DNA of 23,235 nt from Bdellovibrionales bacterium (GCA_020850015.1 JADZFF010000084.1:1-23235), one strand, 5' to 3'. Counted from the first letter of the stretch, positions 4,375 to 12,998 are shown. The notes: generated by a model from the sequence alone, not told the origin. Numbers and translations are program-made.

Positions 4375-5160
4375 TCACTCCGCGGCGGGCATGGCGGCGG
4401 GGTCGCGGGCGCCGTCCCAGGGGATGGTGTCCGTGGCCGGCTCCAGGATCCTGAGCACCACGCGGCGGTTCCGCATCGTGGCGTTCGAATCCACCTTGCC
4501 GTCGTTCAGCCGCTCCGGGACCCAGGGCCTCGTGTCGCCATACCCGATCGCCAGAAGGTTTTCCGGATCGAATCCACGCTCCACGAAGAGACGTACCACG
4601 CGAGAGGCGCGCGCGGCGCTGAGCTCCCAGTTCGTGGGGTAAGGGCCGCTCAACACGGGCCTGCCGTCGGTGTGGCCCTCCACGACGATCCGGAATTTTT
4701 TCATCTCCATGTACTGGCGCTCGCTCAGGGCGTCCATGATCGAGCGCAGGACCGACCGGCCTTGCTCCGTGACGTTGGCGCTCAGCGTGTCGAAAAACAG
4801 CGTGCTGTGGAAGACCATGGCCACGCCCTCTGGCTCCGAATAGATCACGACGTCCTTCTCGACCCCGTTGCTCTCGACGAGTTGGGTAACAAACCGCGCG
4901 GTCTCCGCGCTCTCGCTCTTGTAGTCGCCGCCGAAGGCCTGGGCCACGGACTCGCGCACGGGCTCGAATTTCCGCTTGTCCAGCGTGGACATGCTGAACA
5001 TCATGATGAAGAAGCCGCAGAGAAGGGTCATCATGTCGGCATAGGAAACGAGCCAGTTCGACTCGTCGTCCGCCGCCTTCTTGGGCGGCTCCTGGCCCTT
5101 GCGGGCCTGGAGATCGTCCTGGATCGCCTGGGCTTTTTTCAGGAAGGAACTGATCGCCAT
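4375..5160 (-). CDS. motB: Flagellar-type stator subunit MotB (OmpA-like peptidoglycan-binding C-terminus)
   Basis: The N-terminal plug/TM region WLVSYADMMTLLCGFFIMMF carries the conserved channel Asp (D42, 5035-5037). The C-terminal OmpA-like domain reads RIVVEGHTDGRP...NWELSAARASRVVRLFVERG...AIGYGDTRP. Confidence 0.85.
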   Translation of the reverse strand: MAISSFLKKAQAIQDDLQARKGQEPPKKAADDESNWLVSYADMMTLLCGFFIMMFSMSTLDKRKFEPVRESVAQAFGGDYKSESAETARFVTQLVESNGVEKDVVIYSEPEGVAMVFHSTLFFDTLSANVTEQGRSVLRSIMDALSERQYMEMKKFRIVVEGHTDGRPVLSGPYPTNWELSAARASRVVRLFVERGFDPENLLAIGYGDTRPWVPERLNDGKVDSNATMRNRRVVLRILEPATDTIPWDGARDPAAMPAAE

Positions 5161-5182
5161 GAGCCCTCCCGCGCGCAGAGGC

Positions 5183-5968
5183 CTAGGCGGCCTTGCGCAC
5201 CACCCTGTCTTTCGGCAGCACGAACGAGTTGAGCGTCTCGCGCATGCTGATCGGGTTGGTCTGGGACCTCAGCATCACGCAGCCCTCCACCACCATCCGG
5301 CGCAGCGCCACCTCCTCCTCCGTCCGCACGGTGAGGTTCTCCGCAATCGGGAGAAACACGAAGTTCGCGATCGCGATCCCGTAGAGCGTGCCCACGAGAC
5401 CGATCGACATCGCCGGACCGATCATGGCCTCAGCGCCCGGTTTCCCGAGCTGCTGAAGAAGCGCGATCATTCCAAGAGTCGTGGCCAGAAGCCCGAACGC
5501 CGGCGGGAATTTACCGATCGCGCGGAACATGTTGGCCTCGTACATGTAGCGGTGCTCCACGGTCTTGATCCTCTGCTCAAGCGCGTCGCGGATCTCGCGC
5601 TCCGAAAGCACCCCGCCGGCCACGAGCGATACGGCCTCTCGGAGGAAAGGGTGCCTAATGCCGGGCAGCATGTCGTTCAGCGCCGTCACGCCGCCGATCG
5701 AGGCTTTCTTGTTGAGATCCAGGATCTGCTCGATCACCTGGTGATACTCGTTCCTGTGCGTGCCCAGAACCCTCAGAAAAAACACTTTCAAGAGGGCGAC
5801 CAGCTTCGAAACCGGGAACATGATCGACGCCGCGGCCATCGTGCCCCCGCAGACGATCACGACGCCGTGGAAGTTCAGGAAGAACTTGGCATCCATTCCA
5901 CTCTCGTGGATCGATGCGCCCACGATCCCGAGCCCAAGCAATACTCCGAAGAAGGACGAAAAATTCAT
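5183..5968 (-). CDS. motA: Flagellar-type stator subunit MotA/PomA (MotA/TolQ/ExbB proton-channel family)
   Basis: The 261-aa protein has two N-terminal TM helices, a long cytoplasmic loop, then FPPAFGLLATTLGMIALL and GPAMSIGLVGTLYGIAIANFVFLPIA (the conserved Pro-containing TM3/TM4). It sits directly upstream of motB with a 22-nt gap. Confidence 0.85.
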   Translation of the reverse strand: MNFSSFFGVLLGLGIVGASIHESGMDAKFFLNFHGVVIVCGGTMAAASIMFPVSKLVALLKVFFLRVLGTHRNEYHQVIEQILDLNKKASIGGVTALNDMLPGIRHPFLREAVSLVAGGVLSEREIRDALEQRIKTVEHRYMYEANMFRAIGKFPPAFGLLATTLGMIALLQQLGKPGAEAMIGPAMSIGLVGTLYGIAIANFVFLPIAENLTVRTEEEVALRRMVVEGCVMLRSQTNPISMRETLNSFVLPKDRVVRKAA

Positions 5969-5969
5969 A

Positions 5970-6494
5970 TCAGGCCGACTCCTTACGGCTCCGCATGCGG
6001 TCCACGGCGGTCTGCCAGAGCTGGTACTGACTCACGACGTAACTTCCGTCCAGCTCCCTCAGACGCATCACCAGATCCTTCACGCAACTCTCGTAGAAGC
6101 GCACCTTCCGATCTCCAGACTCGTTGAGAAAGTGCTTGAACGCCTCCTTCGAAATGAAGAAGGTCCTGCACCTGGACTTCGCCCGAACAGTCGCGGAACG
6201 CGGCTGGTCGTCCACGAGCGACATCTCCCCGAAGTAGCTTCCCGCCGCAAGCTCCCCCACATCGTAGATCTCCTCGGTGCTCGGGTTCTTCTTGAAAACA
6301 CCCACCGCCCCCTCGGCGATGAGGAAAAGGCCCCAGGAAAACTCGCCCTCGACCACGACGTTCGAATAGGCCTCGAAGTCCCTGGCATTTCCGAGCTTGA
6401 GGAGCGCATCAAGCTCGGGGTTCGTGAACGGTGCGAAAAGCTTGATCTCGCGGAGCCACTGCACAGAGGGTTGCGTGAAGTTCGGGTCTACCAT
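5970..6494 (-). CDS. Stand-alone cyclic-nucleotide-binding (CAP/CRP-effector-type) domain protein, no recognisable HTH
   Basis: The canonical phosphate-binding cassette FGEMSLVDDQPRSATVRA (6186-6233) retains the conserved Glu and Arg. It is preceded by the beta-roll segment GEFSWGLFLIAEGAVGVF. At 174 aa the protein is too short for a CRP-type DNA-binding domain. Its start overlaps the upstream stop (ATGGTAG), and its stop is 1 nt from the motA ATG. Confidence 0.85.
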   Translation of the reverse strand: MVDPNFTQPSVQWLREIKLFAPFTNPELDALLKLGNARDFEAYSNVVVEGEFSWGLFLIAEGAVGVFKKNPSTEEIYDVGELAAGSYFGEMSLVDDQPRSATVRAKSRCRTFFISKEAFKHFLNESGDRKVRFYESCVKDLVMRLRELDGSYVVSQYQLWQTAVDRMRSRKESA

Positions 6495-8881
6495 CCGGCC
6501 ACCTTCTTGATTTTGGCGAGCGTGCCATCAGAGCTCGGAGGTGGCGGAGCGGCCTGGAAAGCGTTGGGAGCGGTGCCGTCGCCGTATCCATTCGAGGCAA
6601 ACATGCGTTCGTTGGTTTCCACCAGGTTGATCTTGCCGTCCGTGGACATCTTCTTGATGCGGTTGAGGATCTTGCGCTCCACGCCCGCGTAGGAGTCGCG
6701 ACCCTGCACCTGCACGGCCTCGAGCTCCTCCTCGAGCTCCGCAACCAGGTCGCGCGGGCACTTGCTGAATACCATCTGCCGAATCTCGGCAGTGGTGCCC
6801 TTCAGGAACTGCAGGAGCTCGTCGTGCCTGAGGCTCAGCACCACCTCGAGCAGGTGCTGGTCGCGCAGGTAACGGAGCGTCTCCAAGCTGATCAGCTTGT
6901 TCTTCACGCTGTGCGCGCTGTCCGGGTTGCTGCTCTCCAGGTGACCCACGACGCTTTTCTGTACGTCGAGCCCGGTCTTTTCGAGCAGGCTCACGAGCAC
7001 GTCGGTTCCCGGCAGGGCCTCCGTGTTCAGGCGCGGGTTCTCGTGCCGCTTGCGCTTGAGGGCGCTCGCCACATTGCTGATGTAGTCCTTAGGCAGGTGG
7101 TCGATCCGCGAAAGCTCCGTGAGGATGCTGGTCTTCGTCGTCTCGTCGAGCCGGCGATACACGGCGTCGCGCTTCTGGGGATCGCACTGCGTGAGCACGA
7201 TCGCCTTCACGGTCAGGGACTCGTTGCGGACCAGCTCCAGGACCTGCATGTCGTCCATGTCCACCATGAACTCGAACAGGGCCGTGGATCGGTTACCCAT
7301 GACATAGAGCTTGGACGCGACCGTGATGTTGTGGAGCGCGCGCAGGAGCTCGAGCTTCTCCTCGTCGGAGAGCTTGATCGTGTTCCTGGCGTAGAACTCA
7401 AGAAGCTCGGTCACGTCGCGCTGCAGGCTCGGGTCGCGAAGCATGTCGACGACGATGCCTTCACCGAAGATTTCGATGTACTGCGCGGTGGCTTCCACGC
7501 CCTCCTCGGTGAGGATTCGGCTGAATACCTGCTTCGCCACCTTGGGATTCTCGGCGTAGACCTTAGAGAGGGATTCGATGAAGCCTTCGATCTCGTATCT
7601 GAGCTTCACGCGCGAGGCGCGGTCGTCGCTGCCGGACCCGGACGAGGCCTGAGCGGCGTTGCCGTTGCCCAGGGGGTCTGAGATCAGGTTCTGGAAAATT
7701 CGCTGCACCGGACCTGCGGCATCCGGGTTGCCGTGCGGGCGGTAGGCGGCGAGCGCAAGGAAGATCAGAAGAGAGAGAATCGCGCAGGCAAGCACGAGCC
7801 CGTAGACCTTGAACTTGTTGAGCTCGGCCTGGACGGCGTCGCCGCTCTCCACCCGCTCGATCTTCTCGAATCGCTCGAACTTCTCAGAGCGATTCGTATT
7901 GTCCTGTGAGGAATTGGACGAATTGTTCTGGGACACGGTCTGGTTCTTCTCGGAGCTCGAGAGGCTGCGCTGGTCGAGATACCTCGAACGCGCGTCCCGC
8001 GTGAGCTTCGATGCGGCGTCGGAGCCCCCCTGGCCCACCGAGGCGATACCCCGCGAGACACGGCTCCTGAACTCGGCCATGCGCTCGGGCGACGGGAACT
8101 GCACGGAGCTTCCGTCCACCTCGACGTTCTTGTACATCGCGTTGCGGAGACGGGCCATCTCGAGGATCGAGGAGCGCTCGTCGGGGAAGAGGCCGGAATC
8201 CATCAGGATCTTCGCGCCGATCTTCCGCACGCGCACGGCGGTGTCGCCGTCCTGGAGGAACTCTCCCGTGGATCCGTACTGGGCCTCCTCGAGGTTCACG
8301 GGATCCAGAGCCACGTCGAGGTCGCTCAGCAGGCAGCGGTCCGGGCAGTACTTGTTGAACAGCTCCTCGAGGTTGGAACGGATCTCTTTCGTGACCTTCT
8401 CGCGGATCTCGGCCACCTTGCGGCTGCTCGAGGCCGGCTGCGGGAAACGGATCACCTTCTGCTCGATCGTCACGGGGTAGGAGAGCGCATCGAGGTGCTG
8501 CTGCACGAGGTCCATCACCTTGCCACGCGACACTGGCCCAAGCATCTCGTCCACGAGGATCTTCAGAAGGACGCTCGACGCCCCGATCTCGAGGGATCTG
8601 CTCTGAATGGACTCATCGAAACCCGGCGCGATGGTGTCCGGAATCAGCGTGTCCACGGACGACTCCACCGCCAGTACCTTGCAGTGATCGGAGCAGTAGC
8701 GCTCCAGGAGCGGTTCCACCAACGAGCGAACCTGATTCTCCGCCTCGCGCTTCGCCCGATCCACGGAGCCGGGCCCCGGGGCGCCCGACGCGGGCTGGGA
8801 AAGGGCCGCGAGGGCCAGCGCCGTCCCGGCGAGGCCCGCGCACGCGGCCGTCAGTTTTCTGAAAGAGAAATCCGTTCTCAT
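6488..8881 (-). CDS. Bitopic inner-membrane protein: signal peptide + two periplasmic ring-building-motif-like repeats + TM helix + complete FliG-like (N/M/C) cytoplasmic module
   Basis: The cytoplasmic part (aa ~445-760 in ORF numbering, 6623-7570) is collinear with T. maritima FliG as recalled. FEFMVDMDDMQVLELVRNESLTVKAIVLTQCDP aligns with FSFVRDTDPVQLVNFLQSEHPQTIAVVLSYLDP. LRYLRDQHLLEVVLSLRHDELLQFLKGTTAEIRQMVFSKCPRDLVAELEEELE aligns with ILKLDDRSIQLVLREVDTRDLALALKGASDELKEKIFKNMSKRAAALLKDELE. The TM helix VYGLVLACAILSLLIFLALAAY lies at 7742-7807. The periplasmic repeats lie at ~8453-8755 and ~8093-8425. I prefer the start at Met8 (8881), which forms an ATGA overlap with the upstream stop; the longest ORF starts at 8902. 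Confidence 0.8.
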   Translation of the reverse strand: MRTDFSFRKLTAACAGLAGTALALAALSQPASGAPGPGSVDRAKREAENQVRSLVEPLLERYCSDHCKVLAVESSVDTLIPDTIAPGFDESIQSRSLEIGASSVLLKILVDEMLGPVSRGKVMDLVQQHLDALSYPVTIEQKVIRFPQPASSSRKVAEIREKVTKEIRSNLEELFNKYCPDRCLLSDLDVALDPVNLEEAQYGSTGEFLQDGDTAVRVRKIGAKILMDSGLFPDERSSILEMARLRNAMYKNVEVDGSSVQFPSPERMAEFRSRVSRGIASVGQGGSDAASKLTRDARSRYLDQRSLSSSEKNQTVSQNNSSNSSQDNTNRSEKFERFEKIERVESGDAVQAELNKFKVYGLVLACAILSLLIFLALAAYRPHGNPDAAGPVQRIFQNLISDPLGNGNAAQASSGSGSDDRASRVKLRYEIEGFIESLSKVYAENPKVAKQVFSRILTEEGVEATAQYIEIFGEGIVVDMLRDPSLQRDVTELLEFYARNTIKLSDEEKLELLRALHNITVASKLYVMGNRSTALFEFMVDMDDMQVLELVRNESLTVKAIVLTQCDPQKRDAVYRRLDETTKTSILTELSRIDHLPKDYISNVASALKRKRHENPRLNTEALPGTDVLVSLLEKTGLDVQKSVVGHLESSNPDSAHSVKNKLISLETLRYLRDQHLLEVVLSLRHDELLQFLKGTTAEIRQMVFSKCPRDLVAELEEELEAVQVQGRDSYAGVERKILNRIKKMSTDGKINLVETNERMFASNGYGDGTAPNAFQAAPPPPSSDGTLAKIKKVAGW

Positions 8882-9660
8882 TCGGAGCTTACCTTCCTCC
8901 ACTTGGACTGGTCTGACTTGCGCTCGAGGTAGGCCTTGAGCGCAAGGTTGTTCGGGTCGAGCTTCACGGACTGCTGCCAGGAACGGATCGCAAGATCGCG
9001 GTAGCCGAGTCGGTCGAGCAGGGTCCCGCGCATCTCGTAGAGGCGCGGGTCGGTTGGGAAGCTGCGCAAGAGCGCGTCGGTCTCGAGCAGACCCGCCTCG
9101 TAACGGCCCAGGCGGAAAAGCTGTTTCACCTTGTCGAGCGAGGCGAGATAGCTCGTGCCTCCGCGCGGGCCCGGGTCCTCCACGGGCCGAAGCCCGAGGC
9201 CCTGCTCAATCTCCTGCCGCTCGCGGTCGTCGGCCGGATTGCCCTGCGGCATGCGGTTCACGATCTCCAGATCCGTGGCCGTGGGTTTGCGCTCGGTGTA
9301 GCTCTGATCCATGGGTACGCCGTCGGCGTCGAGCGAGGCCGGCCTCCGGCCTTCGCCGCCTTCGATCGACTCGGCGAACTGAGGCGTGAGCGGCACCATG
9401 AAGTCCTGGAACTCCGGCTGGTCGCCCGGCAGCTCCACCTCGAGCGAGCGATGGCCCTTCTTGGTGCGGAACACCACGCGGTCCTGGCTCTGCTTCTGAA
9501 TCCACGCGGTATCGAGGAATGGGTTCTCGATCACTCCCTTCCCCGCCCCGCCATTCGGGGAGGGGCCGAGCCCGATCGATGAGCATCCGGAGGCGATGCT
9601 CAGTACGACCAGGGCGCAGAGGGTCACCGCCGCGGTCATCACCGCGTCCATCCGGGCCAT
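8878..9660 (-). CDS. TPR-repeat lipoprotein (periplasmic)
   Basis: MARMDAVMTAAVTLCALVVLSIASGC is a signal peptide ending in a lipobox-like ASGC. The C-terminus carries two TPR-like units: LGRYEAGLLETDALLRSFPTDPRLYEMRGTLLDRLGYRDLAIRSWQQSVKLDPNN. The start is uncertain. An alternative TTG at 9720 has GGGAG upstream but would overlap the preceding gene by 29 nt. Confidence 0.7.
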   Translation of the reverse strand: MARMDAVMTAAVTLCALVVLSIASGCSSIGLGPSPNGGAGKGVIENPFLDTAWIQKQSQDRVVFRTKKGHRSLEVELPGDQPEFQDFMVPLTPQFAESIEGGEGRRPASLDADGVPMDQSYTERKPTATDLEIVNRMPQGNPADDRERQEIEQGLGLRPVEDPGPRGGTSYLASLDKVKQLFRLGRYEAGLLETDALLRSFPTDPRLYEMRGTLLDRLGYRDLAIRSWQQSVKLDPNNLALKAYLERKSDQSKWRKVSSE

Positions 9661-9691
9661 ACGGGCCCGCCGGCGATCCTGATGAGCCCCC

Positions 9692-10882
9692 TCAGAAGAG
9701 GGCACTGATTCCCAAGCCAATCTCCACTCCCGTCACTGATCCCGCCTCGCTGCCGTCGATGAACCGGGTGGCCTTGGGCCTGAAACCCAGGTTTCCGTTC
9801 ACCGCCCAGTGCTTTCCCAATCGCCATTCGTAACCCGCGCGCACCAGTCCCCCGAGGAATCCCGAGGCATAGGTGCCCCCGATCCCGGCGAAGATGCTGT
9901 GCCTCACCTGATTGAAGTTCTCGAGCTCCCCGATGAGGTTCCACGCATGCACGAAGAGCAGCGTGAGGTTGAAGCTCGCGTAAAGCTTGTTGTCCGCGTC
10001 GGTGGTGTTTCCCACCAGCTGGTTCGCGTCGAGGAGGTAGTTCAACTCGAATCCGACTTCCTTCTTCCGGTTGTCGTACCGCTCCATCATCCGGAACCCG
10101 ATGCCCAAGGTGCTGGAGTACTCTTCCACGTCCCGCTCGAAGAAATAGTAGATGGTCGGCCGGTAGAGGATCGTGGGCACGTAGTCCACGCTCTTCCTCG
10201 CGTCCTCGACCTGCGAGTAGTCCACGCCCCGGCGGAAGGCGGCGGCGCGCGAGGTCTCGGAGTTGTAGCTCTTCGACCACACCACGGCCCCAGTCTCGGA
10301 GTCCGTGATGAACATCGAGAGCATCAGACCGGTGGGCTGGTAGGCGAAGGCCACGTCCATGAAGTTCGAGATCCCGCTCTGCGAGGCCAGACGTGAGAGC
10401 TCCTGCGGGTTGCTCGTGGGCGTGGTGATCACGACGTAGTCGTTGTTGAGGCGCGCCTGCTTGGACTTGCAGGGCAGGCACTGGATGATCTTGCTCTTCG
10501 TATTGTTTAGGATCCGCTCGGTGACGAGCAGCTCGAGGTGGCTCTTGAACGACGGCGGGATGTTCTCGCTCGTGGCCACGTTGCGGATCGAGAGGTTCTT
10601 CAGCCCCTCGACCTCGCCGTTCTTCAGGTCGTACTCGAAATCGGACACGACATCGTCGAGCACCTGGTAGAAATTGCGGACGCGCTCGTCTTCGCTTGCG
10701 GCCGGCGCGGGCGCCACCGGGCCCTGCTGAAGCGGAGCTTCGGCGGTAGTGGAGGCGGCCTGGCTGGACTTCACCGCATCTGCTGCCCCCGCAGAGGGCG
10801 GAAGGAGGGCGCAGAGGGCCATCAGCCCTCCCAAGACGCCCGAAAACTTTAACGTGATGCGGCAATGCACGTGATGCTTCAC
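9692..10882 (-). CDS. Outer-membrane protein: signal peptide, periplasmic N-terminal domain, C-terminal beta-barrel
   Basis: The GTG start is preceded by GGGGAGGAAGG. The signal peptide reads LKFSGVLGGLMALCALLPPSAGAADA. The C-terminal ~200 aa show alternating hydrophobic/aromatic strands (GFELNYLL, YASFNLTLLFVHAW, FAGIGGTYASGF, VRAGYEWRL, WAVNGNLGFR). The protein ends in ...GLGISALF, with the terminal Phe typical of BAM substrates. Confidence 0.7.
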   Translation of the reverse strand: MKHHVHCRITLKFSGVLGGLMALCALLPPSAGAADAVKSSQAASTTAEAPLQQGPVAPAPAASEDERVRNFYQVLDDVVSDFEYDLKNGEVEGLKNLSIRNVATSENIPPSFKSHLELLVTERILNNTKSKIIQCLPCKSKQARLNNDYVVITTPTSNPQELSRLASQSGISNFMDVAFAYQPTGLMLSMFITDSETGAVVWSKSYNSETSRAAAFRRGVDYSQVEDARKSVDYVPTILYRPTIYYFFERDVEEYSSTLGIGFRMMERYDNRKKEVGFELNYLLDANQLVGNTTDADNKLYASFNLTLLFVHAWNLIGELENFNQVRHSIFAGIGGTYASGFLGGLVRAGYEWRLGKHWAVNGNLGFRPKATRFIDGSEAGSVTGVEIGLGISALF

Positions 10883-10985
10883 CCTTCCTCCCCAGGCTCT
10901 TCGGCGAAGTTCCTAATAGCTTGAATACGTTAGGGTTTTGACTGACTCATTTAATCTACTATAAGACCGATAAGAAAGATGAGGT
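10883..10985. promoter_or_regulatory. Divergent intergenic region, locally AT-richer; presumed promoters for the minus-strand six-gene operon and the plus-strand lipoprotein gene
   Basis: This is the only sizeable non-coding gap flanking the operon. It contains TTGAATACGTTAGGGTTTTGACTGACTCATTTAATCTACTATAAGACCGATAAGAAAG, which is much lower in GC than its surroundings. I could not assign convincing -35/-10 or sigma-54 boxes by eye. Confidence 0.35.
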
Positions 10986-11984
10986 ATGGGGGGAAGAACC
11001 ATAAAAACAGCCGCAATCCTGGGAAGCACCCTGCTTGCCGGCTGCTCTACGCCCCAGGGTGCCATTCCCCTGCCGGAGCTGCCCGAGGTGCCGGCCTACG
11101 TACGGGTTCCCCACCCCGGCAACGCCGATTTGAACGAGGTCCGGGCCCTATTCCAGAGCCCCGAGGCCCCAACTCCTGAAACCCTCGCCGCCTGCACCGC
11201 CGACTACGAGCGGATCCAGACGATGACCCAGAGCAAGGAAGACCACTCGCAGGCCGCGCAGGAGCTCGTGGGCCTGCGTCCCGAGGCCTATCACTGGTGC
11301 CTGTACTGGCAGTTCGTGCGCCTCGAGGACCGCATCAAGGAACTCCCGTACCATGACGAGCGCCAGGCCGAGGTCCTCAAGGCCTATGCCTTCATTGTTC
11401 CCGTGGCCCGCGCATTCCGCGAGGTCTACCAGGACTCGCGGTATTTGCGGATCGCCGCCTTCCGCTACCAGAAGGTCAGCGAACGCATCTTCTTCAGACA
11501 GGTGGCCCTGACCTCCGAAGGGGCACGTGACCTGCTGGCCGCCCAGTCGCTGGATCCGCACTCGGTGTGGCAAGCGATGAAAGACACTCAGTCTCCCACT
11601 TTGGAGCGGCTCGGGTTCGTGCCCCCGCCCTCCGAGGTGGACACCTTGATCAAAGAAGCCCCAGCCGGACCCGCCACGGCTGACGTGCCCGCTCCCGCGG
11701 GTGATGCGCCTCCGGCGGCCGCGACGGAACCCGCCGCTGCGCCCGCCGAAGCCGAAGTGGACTCGGAATGGGAGAAGGAGCTCCAGGCGATGGGGGACAA
11801 GGCAGAACCTCCAGCCGCGGCTCCGGTGGACCCCGCGGCGCCTCCCGCGCCCGAGGCCACCGCCCAGGCCGCGCCCCCACCGGCTGATCCGGCCCGCGCC
11901 CCCAGCGCGACGACCGAGCCCTCCCTCGAAGGAATCGAGGAGTTCTCGGCACCGACCGACCCTCCGGCAAACCCTGCCGATTGA
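10986..11984 (+). CDS. Lipoprotein with a Pro/Ala-rich C-terminal tail, family not recognised
   Basis: MGGRTIKTAAILGSTLLAGC carries a canonical lipobox, LLAGC. A globular ~200-aa region follows, then ~115 aa of PA-rich low complexity (PAGPATADVPAPAGDAPPAAATEPAAAP...). Confidence 0.7.
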   Translation: MGGRTIKTAAILGSTLLAGCSTPQGAIPLPELPEVPAYVRVPHPGNADLNEVRALFQSPEAPTPETLAACTADYERIQTMTQSKEDHSQAAQELVGLRPEAYHWCLYWQFVRLEDRIKELPYHDERQAEVLKAYAFIVPVARAFREVYQDSRYLRIAAFRYQKVSERIFFRQVALTSEGARDLLAAQSLDPHSVWQAMKDTQSPTLERLGFVPPPSEVDTLIKEAPAGPATADVPAPAGDAPPAAATEPAAAPAEAEVDSEWEKELQAMGDKAEPPAAAPVDPAAPPAPEATAQAAPPPADPARAPSATTEPSLEGIEEFSAPTDPPANPAD

Positions 11985-12026
11985 CCCCTCACGCGCCGCG
12001 CCTGACCCTCTGGATTGGGGGACTCT

Positions 12027-12998
12027 ATGCGCTGGAATTGCCCGCACTGCTCGATTGAACTGTACCTGGACGACGCTCGCGTCGGGAACGGCTGGTCCTT
12101 CGCGCGCTGCTACAGCTGCGCGGGATTCAGCCTGGTCCGCAAGTCCAACGTGAATACGATCCGGATCGACCAGGCCCCGACGCCGGAAACGATCCTTCAG
12201 CCCCAACCTTCCGTTCCGCGCGTCGAGGTCCCCGCGCAGGGGCCGGTGGCGAACGCGCTGACCCGCCTCGGCGTGGCTCAGAAGAACCTCGGAGAGGCCC
12301 AGACCTCAAGGCCGCAGGTGATCCCCGGCCGCCGCACTCAGCCGCCCGGCCAGACCACGGCGGCGGCTGCCGCCCCGGCCGCGAAAAACATCTTTGGCAC
12401 CCGAACTTTGCCTCAACCGCTTCCGCTCAACCCGCGCACCAGCTCCACTCCTAAGGCTGCGGCGGCCCGCCGTTCGCGCGGGCTGATTCCAGTCGTGCTC
12501 GGGATCATGGCCGTGCTGGTCACAGGCAGCGGCGCCTTCCTTTACGTCCAAGGGCAGAACATGTGGGACCGCGCCCGCGCGGAGCTGGGCCCGGACACCG
12601 ATGGCGTGAAGCTCGGCGCCTCGGCGCCTCAGCGCGCGGCCGGAGCCAAGGCCAGGAAGTCGCAACACAAGGACGCGACGATCTTCTCCGACCGCATCGG
12701 CCAGGGCGCCATGGCCCCCAACCGGGAAATGGGACCCGGAGCCGTGGTCCGCGCCGACGAAGAGACCGACGGGATCCCCGGCCGCATGGTGGTGCGGCCC
12801 ATCCAAAACGCGGTGAACCTGCGGATGGGCCCGGGGACGAAGTACCCCATCGTGGGCCAGGCCGACGCGACGATCACCTACACCGTGACGGAATGGCGCG
12901 AACAGTGGTTCCGCATCATCCCGAACACGGGGCCTGCGGAAGAGGCCTGGATCCGCAACGACTACGTGAACACGGTCAAAGAGACTTCGCAGGAGTGA
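12027..12998 (+). CDS. Zinc-ribbon (MJ0042-type CxxC...CxxC) - Pro-rich linker - TM - periplasmic SH3-like domain protein
   Basis: The N-terminus reads WNCPHCSIELYLDDARVGNGWSFARCYSCAGFSL (12039-12119). The TM helix GLIPVVLGIMAVLVTGSGAFLYV lies at 12480-12548. The C-terminal bacterial SH3 pattern is VNLRMGPGTKYPIVGQADATITYTVTEWREQWFRII...EAWIRNDYV (12786-12968). I prefer the ATG at 12027 (GGGGGA 4-5 nt upstream) over the TTG at 12015. Confidence 0.7.
   Translation: MRWNCPHCSIELYLDDARVGNGWSFARCYSCAGFSLVRKSNVNTIRIDQAPTPETILQPQPSVPRVEVPAQGPVANALTRLGVAQKNLGEAQTSRPQVIPGRRTQPPGQTTAAAAAPAAKNIFGTRTLPQPLPLNPRTSSTPKAAAARRSRGLIPVVLGIMAVLVTGSGAFLYVQGQNMWDRARAELGPDTDGVKLGASAPQRAAGAKARKSQHKDATIFSDRIGQGAMAPNREMGPGAVVRADEETDGIPGRMVVRPIQNAVNLRMGPGTKYPIVGQADATITYTVTEWREQWFRIIPNTGPAEEAWIRNDYVNTVKETSQE

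What the first reader, a model, noticed from the sequence alone, without database searches (positions are those of the whole stretch)
5970..6494. Stand-alone cNMP-binding protein wedged between the FliG-like gene and motA: possible cyclic-nucleotide control of a stator-rotor interface
Seen in sequence: this 174-aa protein has an intact phosphate-binding cassette, FGEMSLVDDQPRSATV (6186-6233). It has no room for an HTH output domain. It is translationally coupled on both sides, overlapping the upstream stop and ending 1 nt before the motA ATG. Established knowledge: the best-known small-molecule brake on the flagellar motor is the c-di-GMP/PilZ protein YcgR, which contacts MotA and FliG. CAP-type CNB domains bind cAMP/cGMP, or occasionally other ligands. 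Inference: the gene position argues for stoichiometric co-production with stator and rotor. That suggests a cAMP/cGMP-responsive clutch, brake or assembly factor, an arrangement I am not aware of for MotAB systems.
Basis: partly seen in the sequence, partly recalled or inferred. Interest (0 to 1): 0.72.

Follow-up and report, generated by a model that had tools for sequence, protein, structure and literature searches.

The report
cNMP sensor inside a rotor-stator operon
A small cyclic-nucleotide-binding protein sits, in every genome examined, between a FliF/FliG-like fusion gene and its own motA-motB genes in an uncultured branch of Bdellovibrio relatives, which suggests but does not prove that cAMP or cGMP switches a flagellum-derived motor module directly.

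Summary
Window 5970-6494 (minus strand) encodes a 174-aa stand-alone cNMP-binding protein (Pfam PF00027, E=7.6e-18). Its phosphate-binding cassette is intact and it has no HTH domain. Its start overlaps the upstream stop by 7 nt, and its stop lies 1 nt before the motA ATG.

The gene belongs to a tightly packed six-gene module: outer-membrane-like protein, TPR lipoprotein, 804-aa fusion, CNB, MotA, MotB. The fusion has two FliF-like ring-building repeats, one TM helix and FliG M and C domains. In all 24 further loci examined, the genes the contig reaches keep this order. Four of those loci were found through the fusion protein rather than the CNB. The labelled genomes point to the uncultured Bdellovibrionota class UBA1018.

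The cassette residues G89, E90, R99, S100 and A101 are invariant in 38 family members, as is a family-specific C-terminal motif, QYQLW.

Best reading: a cAMP (or cGMP) sensor that binds and gates this dedicated motor module. The ligand, the binding partner and the direction of the effect are all inferred. I found no description of the arrangement in the searchable literature. I rate it a new variant of second-messenger motor control, with interest about 0.7.

The parts
5970..6494 (-). Stand-alone cyclic-nucleotide-binding (CNB) protein, 174 aa
   Evidence: PF00027 at E=7.6e-18. The AF2 model shows a CNB fold, and Foldseek top hits are PKA-R, PKG, CRP and DNR at E about 1e-10. More than 148 homologous clusters of about 168 aa at 50-60% identity.
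6186..6233 (-). Phosphate-binding cassette FGEMSLVDDQPRSATV (residues 88-103)
   Evidence: F88, G89, E90, M91, S92, L93, D95, R99, S100, A101 and V103 are invariant in 38 family members. It aligns with the cassette of PKA RI-alpha, YFGEIALLMNRPRAATV.
6015..6041 (-). Family-specific C-terminal helix motif YV(V/I)SQYQLW (residues 152-160)
   Evidence: Q156, Y157, Q158, L159 and W160 are invariant. The motif lies in predicted helix 150-173, beyond the CNB core. A variant, SQ(K/R)QLW, is kept in the Silvanigrellales homologues.
6488..8902 (-). 804-aa fusion. It comprises an N-terminal signal/TM segment (aa 17-35), two FliF-like RBM repeats (aa 45-290, nt 8033-8770), an S/N-rich linker, a TM helix (aa 366-387, nt 7742-7807), FliG_M (nt 7037-7246) and FliG_C (nt 6623-6943, torque helix nt 6713-6769).
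   Evidence: Pfam FliG_M and FliG_C. A family profile matches FliG structures 3ajc and 3hjl at E about 6e-11. The AF2 model of aa 45-290 (pLDDT 87.2) shows two alpha-beta-beta-alpha-beta repeats. Foldseek top hits are the Salmonella FliF MS-ring 7bk0_B (E=2.5e-6) and 6scn_A, then YscD.
5183..5968 (-). MotA/PomA-type stator A subunit, 261 aa
   Evidence: PF01618 at E=1e-19. The best PDB relatives are flagellar MotA and PomA, at E=2e-33 to 1e-27. It is the most conserved gene of the module, with mean pairwise identity 0.67.
4375..5160 (-). MotB-type stator B subunit, 261 aa, with plug, channel Asp42 and an OmpA-like peptidoglycan-binding domain
   Evidence: MotB_plug at E=2e-18 and OmpA at E=9e-15. 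The SYAD42MM transmembrane motif is present.
8878..9720 (-). TPR lipoprotein (lipobox IASGC)
   Evidence: TPR_2 and TPR_14 hits are weak and below the curated cutoffs. The lipobox is seen in the sequence. The gene sits directly upstream of the fusion in every locus whose contig reaches it.
9692..10882 (-). 396-aa secreted protein, probably an outer-membrane beta-barrel. It has a signal peptide, a C-terminal ...GISALF and an invariant CxxC.
   Evidence: The sequence features are. There is no Pfam family beyond a weak DUF3575 hit. It is the first gene of the module in every locus whose contig reaches it, and the alignment shows invariant residues.
10986..11984 (+). Divergently transcribed lipoprotein (lipobox LLAGC) that travels with the module
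   Evidence: It is next to the OM-like gene on the opposite strand in 14 of the 16 loci whose contig reaches that side; it was not found in L012 and lies about 3.5 kb away on the same strand in L013. In the window it was inverted together with the six genes.
5966..5981 (-). CNB stop to motA start junction, with a GAGG Shine-Dalgarno-like sequence inside the last CNB codons
   Evidence: The pattern GAGGCnGCnTAA(0-3 nt)ATG recurs across loci. The gap is -1 to +3 nt in 17 of 18 loci.

Best explanation
The 174-aa protein is a stand-alone sensor for a cyclic nucleotide, most likely cAMP and possibly cGMP. It works as a dedicated cytoplasmic subunit or regulator of a flagellum-derived rotor-stator module. 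It is translated from one compact operon together with a membrane-anchored FliF(RBM)-FliG fusion protein and a private MotA/MotB proton-channel stator. I propose that ligand binding to the canonical cassette repositions the C-terminal helices, as C-helix extension does in CRP and lid closure does in PKA-R. That movement would expose or hide the invariant YVxSQYQLW helix. The helix would then bind or release a cytoplasmic partner, either the FliG-like domain of the fusion or the MotA cytoplasmic domain. The effect would be to switch stator engagement or torque transfer on or off.

Shown: the gene, fold, invariant cassette, lack of an output domain, conserved gene order and conserved translational coupling. 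Inferred: the identity of the ligand, direct binding to the motor proteins, which partner is bound, and whether the ligand activates or brakes.
For: The CNB domain is highly significant and the fold is confirmed.

The cassette residues G89, E90, R99, S100 and A101 are invariant in 38 members spanning 48-80% identity. CRP-family members that do not bind cNMP generally lack these residues (own knowledge).

Ser after the cassette Arg is typical of cAMP-activated CRPs. Bdellovibrio has annotated adenylate cyclases and is not known to make cGMP (PMC6717892).

No HTH or other output domain is present.

In 24 of 24 further loci the genes the contig reaches keep the order fusion-CNB-MotA-MotB, including 4 of 4 loci fetched independently through the fusion.

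The fusion stop overlaps the CNB ATG by 1-7 nt in 16 of the 18 loci where it could be scored (0 nt in L007; L017 is masked). The gap from CNB stop to motA ATG is -1 to +3 nt in 17 of 18 loci.

In the window lineage the module was inverted as one block without internal change.

The partner machinery looks functional. MotB keeps its plug and channel Asp42. The FliG-like torque helix keeps its charged residues, SP(K/R)xLVxELEEEL. MotA keeps a conserved basic/acidic pair of patches, NKKAS...ALN(D/E).

The FliG_M EHPQ motif that binds FliM is replaced by NESL, which leaves room for a different cytoplasmic partner.
Against: There is no experimental or computational test of ligand binding or of protein-protein contact.

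The linkage was observed mainly within one uncultured lineage. Labelled members fall in GTDB class UBA1018. Neighbouring housekeeping genes (M14 peptidase, DedA, XerC, TrmFO) are syntenic there too, so part of the conservation is simply shared ancestry.

Homologues with the same C-terminal motif in four Silvanigrellales loci are not next to motAB or a FliG-like gene. The subfamily can therefore exist away from the module.

The conserved last residues of the CNB (..EAA) and of the fusion (..AGW) are explained at least partly by the overlapping SD and ATG signals, not by protein function.
Confidence: 0.5

Rival explanations
1. The CNB protein is a constitutive structural subunit of the module. 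For example, it could replace FliM/FliN beneath the FliG-like domain. The nucleotide would then be only a structural cofactor, or not be bound at all.
For: The FliM-binding EHPQ motif of FliG_M is lost, and no fliM or fliN gene lies in the module. Tight translational coupling suggests fixed stoichiometry. W54 and the QYQLW motif are invariant and lie outside the ligand site.
Against: Strict invariance of the ligand-contacting cassette residues E90, R99, S100 and A101 over deep divergence is what one expects of a working sensor, not a relic.
Confidence: 0.15
2. It is a motor-linked sensor, but for a different ligand. Candidates are c-di-GMP or 3',3'-cGAMP (CRP-like proteins such as Clp bind c-di-GMP, and Bdellovibrio makes cGAMP), or cCMP/cUMP as in Pycsar effectors.
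For: PADLOC shows CNB-level similarity to Pycsar effector sensor domains at E=2e-9. In B. bacteriovorus, cGAMP controls gliding motility (PMC9140294, listed).
Against: The cassette is of the classical cAMP/cGMP type and aligns residue for residue with PKA-R. No Pycsar cyclase or any other cyclase gene lies beside the module. The known c-di-GMP-binding CRP-like proteins use residues outside the cassette (own knowledge).
Confidence: 0.12
3. It is a general cytoplasmic cAMP receptor or buffer whose targets lie elsewhere. Its position in the operon would reflect co-expression or inherited gene order, not physical interaction with the motor.
For: Silvanigrellales homologues with the same C-terminal motif are encoded next to unrelated genes, namely a Ser/Thr kinase, hisIE and mutM. 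Flanking housekeeping synteny is also conserved in the module-bearing lineage.
Against: The gene is wedged between two motor genes with overlapping or near-abutting start and stop codons in every locus. The block stayed intact through an inversion. The CNB and fusion families are of similar size, and many cluster pairs share the same longest-contig length.
Confidence: 0.13
4. It is a truncated CRP/FNR-type transcription factor fragment that acts by heterodimerising with full-length regulators, or it is a decaying pseudogene.
For: The best NCBIfam match is CRP, covering residues 9-130 of 214 at E=1.6e-14. Helix 127-148 resembles the CRP dimerisation helix.
Against: The length of about 168 aa is uniform across more than 148 clusters, with strong purifying conservation, so it is not a decaying fragment. 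No HTH is present in any member. The CRP equivalog cutoff is far from met (53.9 against 266 bits).
Confidence: 0.05

Closest known systems
YcgR / MotI (DgrA) / FlgZ: PilZ-domain c-di-GMP brakes and clutches of the flagellar motor
   Same: A small soluble second-messenger receptor proposed to act directly on MotA and/or FliG.
   Different: The fold and ligand differ: a CNB domain binding cNMP instead of a PilZ domain binding c-di-GMP, and there is no PilZ hit. The gene is embedded and translationally coupled inside the stator operon. The partner is a membrane-anchored FliF/FliG fusion, not the flagellar C-ring. No interaction has been shown.
CAP/CRP and PKA-R/PKG-type cyclic-nucleotide-binding domains (PF00027), including Bdellovibrio Bd1971 (cNMP-EAL)
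   Same: The same fold and an intact cassette with Gly-Glu...Arg-Ser-Ala. B/C helices follow the beta-roll, as in CRP.
   Different: There is no covalently attached output domain: no HTH, kinase-binding segment, EAL or channel. Instead there is a family-specific terminal helix, YVxSQYQLW. The scores are far below the CRP equivalog cutoff.
Flagellar rotor-stator pair FliF/FliG with MotAB/PomAB
   Same: MotA and MotB belong to the flagellar (PomA/MotA, plug-bearing, OmpA-anchored) type. The FliG_M and FliG_C domains have a charged torque helix. The periplasmic repeats are most similar to the FliF MS-ring.
   Different: FliF-like and FliG-like parts are one polypeptide with only two RBM repeats. 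The EHPQ FliM-binding motif is lost. No export apparatus, rod, hook or fliM/fliN genes are in the module. All scores lie below the NCBIfam flagellar equivalog cutoffs. The positions of the MotA charged residues are shifted relative to PomA R88/E96.
Chlamydiaceae FliF-FliG natural fusion (Bergeron, bioRxiv 10.1101/023564)
   Same: It is a natural protein with two RBM-like periplasmic repeats, a TM helix and a C-terminal FliG-like domain, found outside a complete flagellar gene set.
   Different: The chlamydial protein is about 330 aa, has only FliG_M-like sequence, and is not reported with a cognate motAB or a CNB gene.
Other envelope-spanning systems powered by MotAB-family ion-driven motors (Agl-Glt gliding machinery, Tol-Pal, ExbBD-TonB)
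   Same: An inner-membrane ion-driven motor encoded together with a TPR protein, a lipoprotein and an outer-membrane-type protein. This suggests force transmission across the envelope.
   Different: Those systems use TolQ/ExbB-type A subunits and TonB/TolA/GltG-like transducers. None uses a FliG-like cytoplasmic domain or a CNB protein (own knowledge).

Membership tests
Cyclic nucleotide-binding domain (Pfam PF00027, CAP_ED) | Profile match above the curated gathering score | tested here: met
   64.7 bits against a cutoff of 27.5, E=7.6e-18, residues 38-125.
Cyclic nucleotide-binding domain (Pfam PF00027, CAP_ED) | Phosphate-binding cassette with Gly-Glu and Arg-(Ser/Thr/Ala)-Ala | tested here: met
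   FGEMSLVDDQPRSATV is present, and G89, E90, R99, S100 and A101 are invariant in 38 members. It aligns with the PKA RI-alpha cassette.
Cyclic nucleotide-binding domain (Pfam PF00027, CAP_ED) | Eight-stranded beta-roll followed by B/C helices | tested here: met
   AF2 model at pLDDT 81.9. Foldseek hits to PKA-R, PKG, CRP and DNR at E about 1e-10, probability 1.00.
Cyclic nucleotide-binding domain (Pfam PF00027, CAP_ED) | Actual binding of cAMP or cGMP | not testable with these tools
   This needs ITC or DRaCALA on purified protein.
CRP/FNR transcription factors | C-terminal helix-turn-helix DNA-binding domain | tested here: not met
   No HTH family was found by Pfam or NCBIfam. The protein ends at residue 174 after two helices. 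The CRP equivalog scores 53.9 against a cutoff of 266 bits.
YcgR/PilZ-type flagellar brake | PilZ domain (with YcgR N-domain) binding c-di-GMP | tested here: not met
   PF00027 is the only Pfam family detected.
YcgR/PilZ-type flagellar brake | Direct contact with MotA and/or FliG | not testable with these tools
Only gene adjacency and coupling were shown.
Flagellar stator MotA/MotB (neighbouring genes) | MotA_ExbB channel domain; MotB plug, TM Asp and OmpA-like domain | tested here: met
   PF01618, PF13677 and PF00691 all score above cutoff. Asp42 lies in SYADMM. The best PDB relatives are flagellar MotA and PomA.
Flagellar stator MotA/MotB (neighbouring genes) | Reaches an NCBIfam flagellar equivalog cutoff (MotA, PomA, MotP, MotB, MotS or MotD) | tested here: not met
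   The best MotA-side model scores 150.6 against 394 bits. The best MotB-side model scores 147.5 against 283 bits.
FliG rotor protein (upstream gene) | FliG_M and FliG_C domains with a charged torque helix | tested here: met
   PF14841 scores 32.7 against 25, and PF01706 scores 58.9 against 23.3. The family profile matches 3ajc and 3hjl. The motif SP(K/R)xLVxELEEEL is conserved.
FliG rotor protein (upstream gene) | EHPQR motif of FliG_M that binds FliM; the fliG equivalog cutoff | tested here: not met
   The motif position reads NESL, and only the Glu is kept. TIGR00207 scores 56.9 against 226.7 bits.
FliF / SctJ ring-building proteins (upstream gene, periplasmic part) | RBM alpha-beta-beta-alpha-beta repeats | tested here: met
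   The AF2 model (pLDDT 87.2) has two such repeats. The Foldseek best hits are FliF 7bk0_B (E=2.5e-6) and 6scn_A (E=3.1e-5), then YscD. TM-scores are low (0.26-0.29), so the similarity is per domain and not in overall arrangement.
FliF / SctJ ring-building proteins (upstream gene, periplasmic part) | Sequence-level membership (Pfam YscJ_FliF) and ring formation | tested here: not met
   There is no YscJ_FliF hit even at E<=1. Oligomerisation cannot be tested here.
Zorya or Pycsar anti-phage systems | ZorA plus ZorC/D, or a Pycsar cyclase next to a CNB effector carrying a toxic domain | tested here: not met
   PADLOC gives no ZorA hit for MotA and only generic ZorB/MotB and CNB-domain similarity. 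There is no cyclase and no TIR or TM effector part.

The most novel reading that the evidence does not exclude
The module of six genes, or seven with the divergent lipoprotein, encodes a self-contained non-flagellar nanomachine that spans the envelope. A ring or array of a FliF(RBM)-FliG fusion protein would be driven by its own MotAB stator and connected through a TPR lipoprotein to an outer-membrane protein. The CNB protein would be a built-in cAMP/cGMP gate. This would be a previously undescribed organelle derived from the flagellar rotor, and the first direct cNMP control of a MotAB-type motor.
Probability: 0.3. Interest if true: 0.9.

Novelty: new variant of a known kind. Interest (0 to 1): 0.7.

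Why it matters
The well-established direct second-messenger control of MotAB-driven motors is by c-di-GMP through PilZ proteins. In bacteria, cAMP and cGMP are best known to affect motility through transcription. A CNB protein built into a stator operon would add a new signalling input acting at the level of the machine.

The surrounding module matters too. It combines a natural FliF-FliG fusion with a private MotAB, a TPR lipoprotein and an outer-membrane-type protein. That bears on two open questions: how flagellar rotor and stator parts are re-used, and what minimal rotor a MotAB unit can drive.

Both ideas can be tested directly by biochemistry and cryo-EM of six recombinant proteins, even though the hosts are uncultured. 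The labelled members fall in class UBA1018, and some are magnetotactic cells with a thick polar flagellum (PMC13200544).

Tried and rejected
- **Hidden output domain or RNA element.** Pfam, NCBIfam and the AF2 model show none. There are no Rfam hits in the window, so no c-di-GMP or cGAMP riboswitch.
- **Promoter and terminator scan across the module.** It found no sigma-70-like sites, and terminator-like sites occur at chance level. This is consistent with one operon but uninformative.
- **Anti-phage reading (Zorya or Pycsar).** Rejected.
- **Ortholog in cultured Bdellovibrio bacteriovorus (motAB1/2/3).** No named cultured-strain protein appears among the best 120 clusters for the CNB or the fusion, and none among the 17 GTDB species loci with at least 45% identity. 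The papers on HD100 stators do not mention a CNB or FliG-like neighbour.
- **Literature.** Ten searches found no description of a CNB gene in a motAB operon or of this module.
- **Search of 1.84 billion representative proteins.** The results were dominated by multi-CNB repeat proteins. About 20 single-domain representatives of 165-246 aa cover the profile through position about 167. This shows a small family and nothing more.
- **Pfam at relaxed thresholds.** The OM-like protein, both lipoproteins and the periplasmic repeats gave nothing usable.
- **Multimer prediction of CNB with MotA or FliG.** It could not be run.

Full report
**1. The observation**

All genes of interest lie on the minus strand. 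ORF 5970-6494 encodes 174 aa. It matches Pfam cNMP_binding at E=7.6e-18 over residues 38-125 and matches nothing else. The best NCBIfam hit is CRP, but it covers only the sensor part and falls far below cutoff.

FGEMSLVDDQPRSATV is residues 88-103, nt 6186-6233. The upstream 804-aa ORF (6488-8902) overlaps the CNB ATG by 7 nt. The CNB stop is followed after 1 nt by the motA ATG. The window is a contig of a Bdellovibrionales MAG with about 65% G+C.

**2. The CNB protein**

An AlphaFold2 model built on 38 homologues has pLDDT 81.9. It shows an N-terminal helix, the beta-roll, and helices 116-124, 127-148 and 150-173. Foldseek finds PKA-R, PKG, DNR, CRP and Clr at E about 1e-10, which marks a generic CNB fold. 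Sequence searches of the PDB agree.

The family has more than 148 clusters at 90% identity. Nearly all members are 157-187 aa and 50-60% identical to the window protein.

Across 38 members the cassette residues F88, G89, E90, M91, S92, L93, D95, R99, S100, A101 and V103 are invariant. So is a C-terminal motif outside the CNB core, Q156-Y157-Q158-L159-W160, and so is W54.

Ser after the cassette Arg is the CRP-like, cAMP-type state. Bdellovibrio is reported to have adenylate cyclases and is not known to make cGMP (PMC6717892).

**3. The surroundings**

The upstream protein is more than FliG-like. It has the following parts:

- an N-terminal hydrophobic segment;
- a periplasmic region whose model (pLDDT 87.2) consists of two alpha-beta-beta-alpha-beta repeats;
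- an S/N-rich linker;
- a conserved segment just before a single TM helix (aa 366-387);
- a cytoplasmic FliG region.

The best structural matches of the periplasmic region are the Salmonella FliF MS-ring (7bk0_B at E=2.5e-6, 6scn_A at E=3.1e-5) and then YscD. The low TM-scores show per-domain similarity only. The cytoplasmic region matches FliG_M and FliG_C and the FliG crystal structures 3ajc and 3hjl.

The torque-helix charges are kept, as SP(K/R)xLVxELEEEL. The EHPQ motif that binds FliM is replaced by NESL.

MotA is of the flagellar PomA/MotA type, at E=2e-33 to solved stators. MotB has its plug, Asp42 and an OmpA-like domain. MotA carries a conserved NKKAS...ALN(D/E) segment. Its charges are shifted by about two residues relative to PomA R88/E96 (the PomA numbering is from my own knowledge).

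Upstream of the fusion lie a TPR lipoprotein and a 396-aa secreted protein ending in ...GISALF, which is typical of outer-membrane barrels. All six genes overlap or are separated by 22 nt or less.

**4. Conservation**

- Two CNB homologues looked up by exact sequence sit in the same six-gene order.
- A scan of GTDB species genomes with the CNB alignment returned 17 loci at 45% identity or more. In each, the genes the contig reaches keep the order OM-like, TPR, fusion, CNB, MotA, MotB.
- Hits at 38% identity or less, from Silvanigrellales, Burkholderiales, Myxococcota and others, have no such neighbours.
- Four loci fetched through divergent fusion proteins, independently of the CNB, all carry the cNMP_binding gene between the fusion and MotA.

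That makes 24 of 24 further loci keeping the order for the genes they reach.

Start/stop coupling is conserved. The fusion stop overlaps the CNB start by 1-7 nt in 16 of the 18 loci that could be scored; it abuts with 0 nt in L007, and L017 is masked. The usual form is GGATGGTAG, reading ..GW* in one frame and MV.. in the other. The gap from CNB stop to motA ATG is -1 to +3 nt in 17 of 18 loci, with a GAGG sequence inside the last CNB codons.

Mean pairwise identities are MotA 0.67, CNB 0.56, OM-like 0.55, fusion 0.51, MotB 0.48 and TPR 0.43.

In most genomes the module is flanked on one side by a divergent lipoprotein gene. On the other side lie a zinc-ribbon/SH3 gene, a PMT-type glycosyltransferase, an M14 peptidase, DedA, XerC and TrmFO. 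In the window, and in its close relative L004, the lipoprotein gene plus the six genes are inverted as one block.

**5. Who carries it**

Labelled members include the MAG UBA1018 (L012), a JAMPXJ01 genome (L003) and 'Bdellovibrionota bacterium FG-2' (L013). A 2026 paper places FG-2 and JAMPXJ01 in the uncultured GTDB class UBA1018, sister to Bacteriovoracia. It describes FG cells as vibrioid, magnetotactic, and carrying a single thick polar flagellum (PMC13200544).

Flagellin genes lie 5-7 kb from the module in several loci. The hosts are therefore flagellated, and the module exists in addition to a flagellum. No cultured Bdellovibrio protein appeared among the listed hits, but absence there is not proven.

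**6. Interpretation**

A small ligand-binding protein lacks any output domain. Its ligand site is invariant. It has a conserved extra helix. Its gene is wedged in and translationally coupled between a rotor-like gene and a stator gene. The most economical reading is a nucleotide-gated subunit or regulator of that motor module.

By analogy, the mechanism would be ligand-driven repositioning of the C-terminal helices, as in CRP and PKA-R, which changes binding to the FliG-like domain or to MotA. I give this a confidence of 0.5.

The rivals are listed here with their weights:

- a constitutive structural subunit replacing FliM/FliN (0.15);
- a different ligand such as c-di-GMP, cGAMP or cCMP/cUMP (0.12);
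- a general cAMP receptor merely co-located with the module (0.13), which has some support from the four unlinked Silvanigrellales homologues that keep the SQxQLW motif;
- a transcription-factor fragment (0.05).

Whether the module is an independent machine or an accessory of the polar flagellum cannot be decided here.

**7. Comparison with known systems**

The protein would work like YcgR, MotI or FlgZ, but it is not a member of that family because it has no PilZ domain. It is a bona fide CNB-domain protein but not a CRP/FNR regulator, because it has no HTH.

Its partner resembles the chlamydial natural FliF-FliG fusion (10.1101/023564). Here, however, the partner has a full FliG_M and FliG_C region and a cognate stator.

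It is not Zorya or Pycsar. A recent survey of MotAB diversity does not mention such an arrangement (PMC12505986). Ten literature searches found no description.

**8. Verdict**

The finding is a new variant of second-messenger control of MotAB-type motors, set inside a module that may itself be new. I rate interest at 0.7. The main limits are that function rests on genomic context within one uncultured lineage, and that no binding data exist.

Noticed in passing
window 4375-11984 compared with L001-L019: In most genomes the module is followed by a zinc-ribbon/SH3 gene and then PMT-glycosyltransferase, M14 peptidase, DedA, XerC and TrmFO. In the window and in L004, the block of divergent lipoprotein plus six genes is inverted as one unit. 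As a result the zinc-ribbon/SH3 gene (12015-12998) now follows the lipoprotein gene instead of motB.
   Followed up: partly
window 6488-6494 and 5966-5981; same junctions in L002-L019: The conserved C-terminus of the fusion (..AGW*) and the N-terminus of the CNB (MV..) are two readings of the same overlapping bases, GGATGGTAG. The conserved CNB C-terminus (..EAA*) is GAGGCnGCnTAA, which contains a Shine-Dalgarno-like GAGG for motA. Terminal residue conservation may therefore reflect translation signals rather than protein function.
   Followed up: yes
window 8033-8770 (fusion aa 45-290): Each of the two RBM-like periplasmic repeats carries an invariant CxxxC pair (C70/C74 and C186/C190, within YCxDxCKLL and FCPxQCLLAD). 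This suggests disulfides or metal sites, which are not a feature of FliF that I know of.
   Followed up: no
window 9692-10882: The first gene of the module encodes a 396-aa protein with no Pfam family. It has a signal peptide, an invariant CxxC (C135/C138), many invariant residues and a C-terminal ...GISALF typical of outer-membrane beta-barrels.
   Followed up: partly
L001/L002 77-907; L086 1-506; locus: A flagellin gene lies 5-7 kb upstream of the module in several genomes, beyond meaB or M48-peptidase genes. It shows the hosts are flagellated. Whether it reflects a functional link is unknown.
   Followed up: no
L021 5062-5730, L022, L023, L024 (Silvanigrellales MAGs): CNB proteins 33-36% identical to the window protein keep the cassette and the RLRELDEEFILSQKQLW-type C-terminus. 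They are encoded away from any motAB or FliG-like gene; in L021 the neighbours are a Ser/Thr kinase, hisIE and mutM.
   Followed up: partly
window 7886-8030 (fusion aa ~292-339): A Ser/Asn-rich low-complexity linker of very variable length and sequence separates the RBM repeats from a strongly conserved pre-TM segment, ERFExxEKIERVExGDAVQAEL.
   Followed up: no
window 5970-6494 against PADLOC: The CNB domain gives E=2e-9 matches to the sensor domains of Pycsar TIR effectors, which sense cCMP/cUMP. This is a reminder that CNB domains can read pyrimidine cyclic nucleotides. No Pycsar cyclase is nearby.
   Followed up: partly
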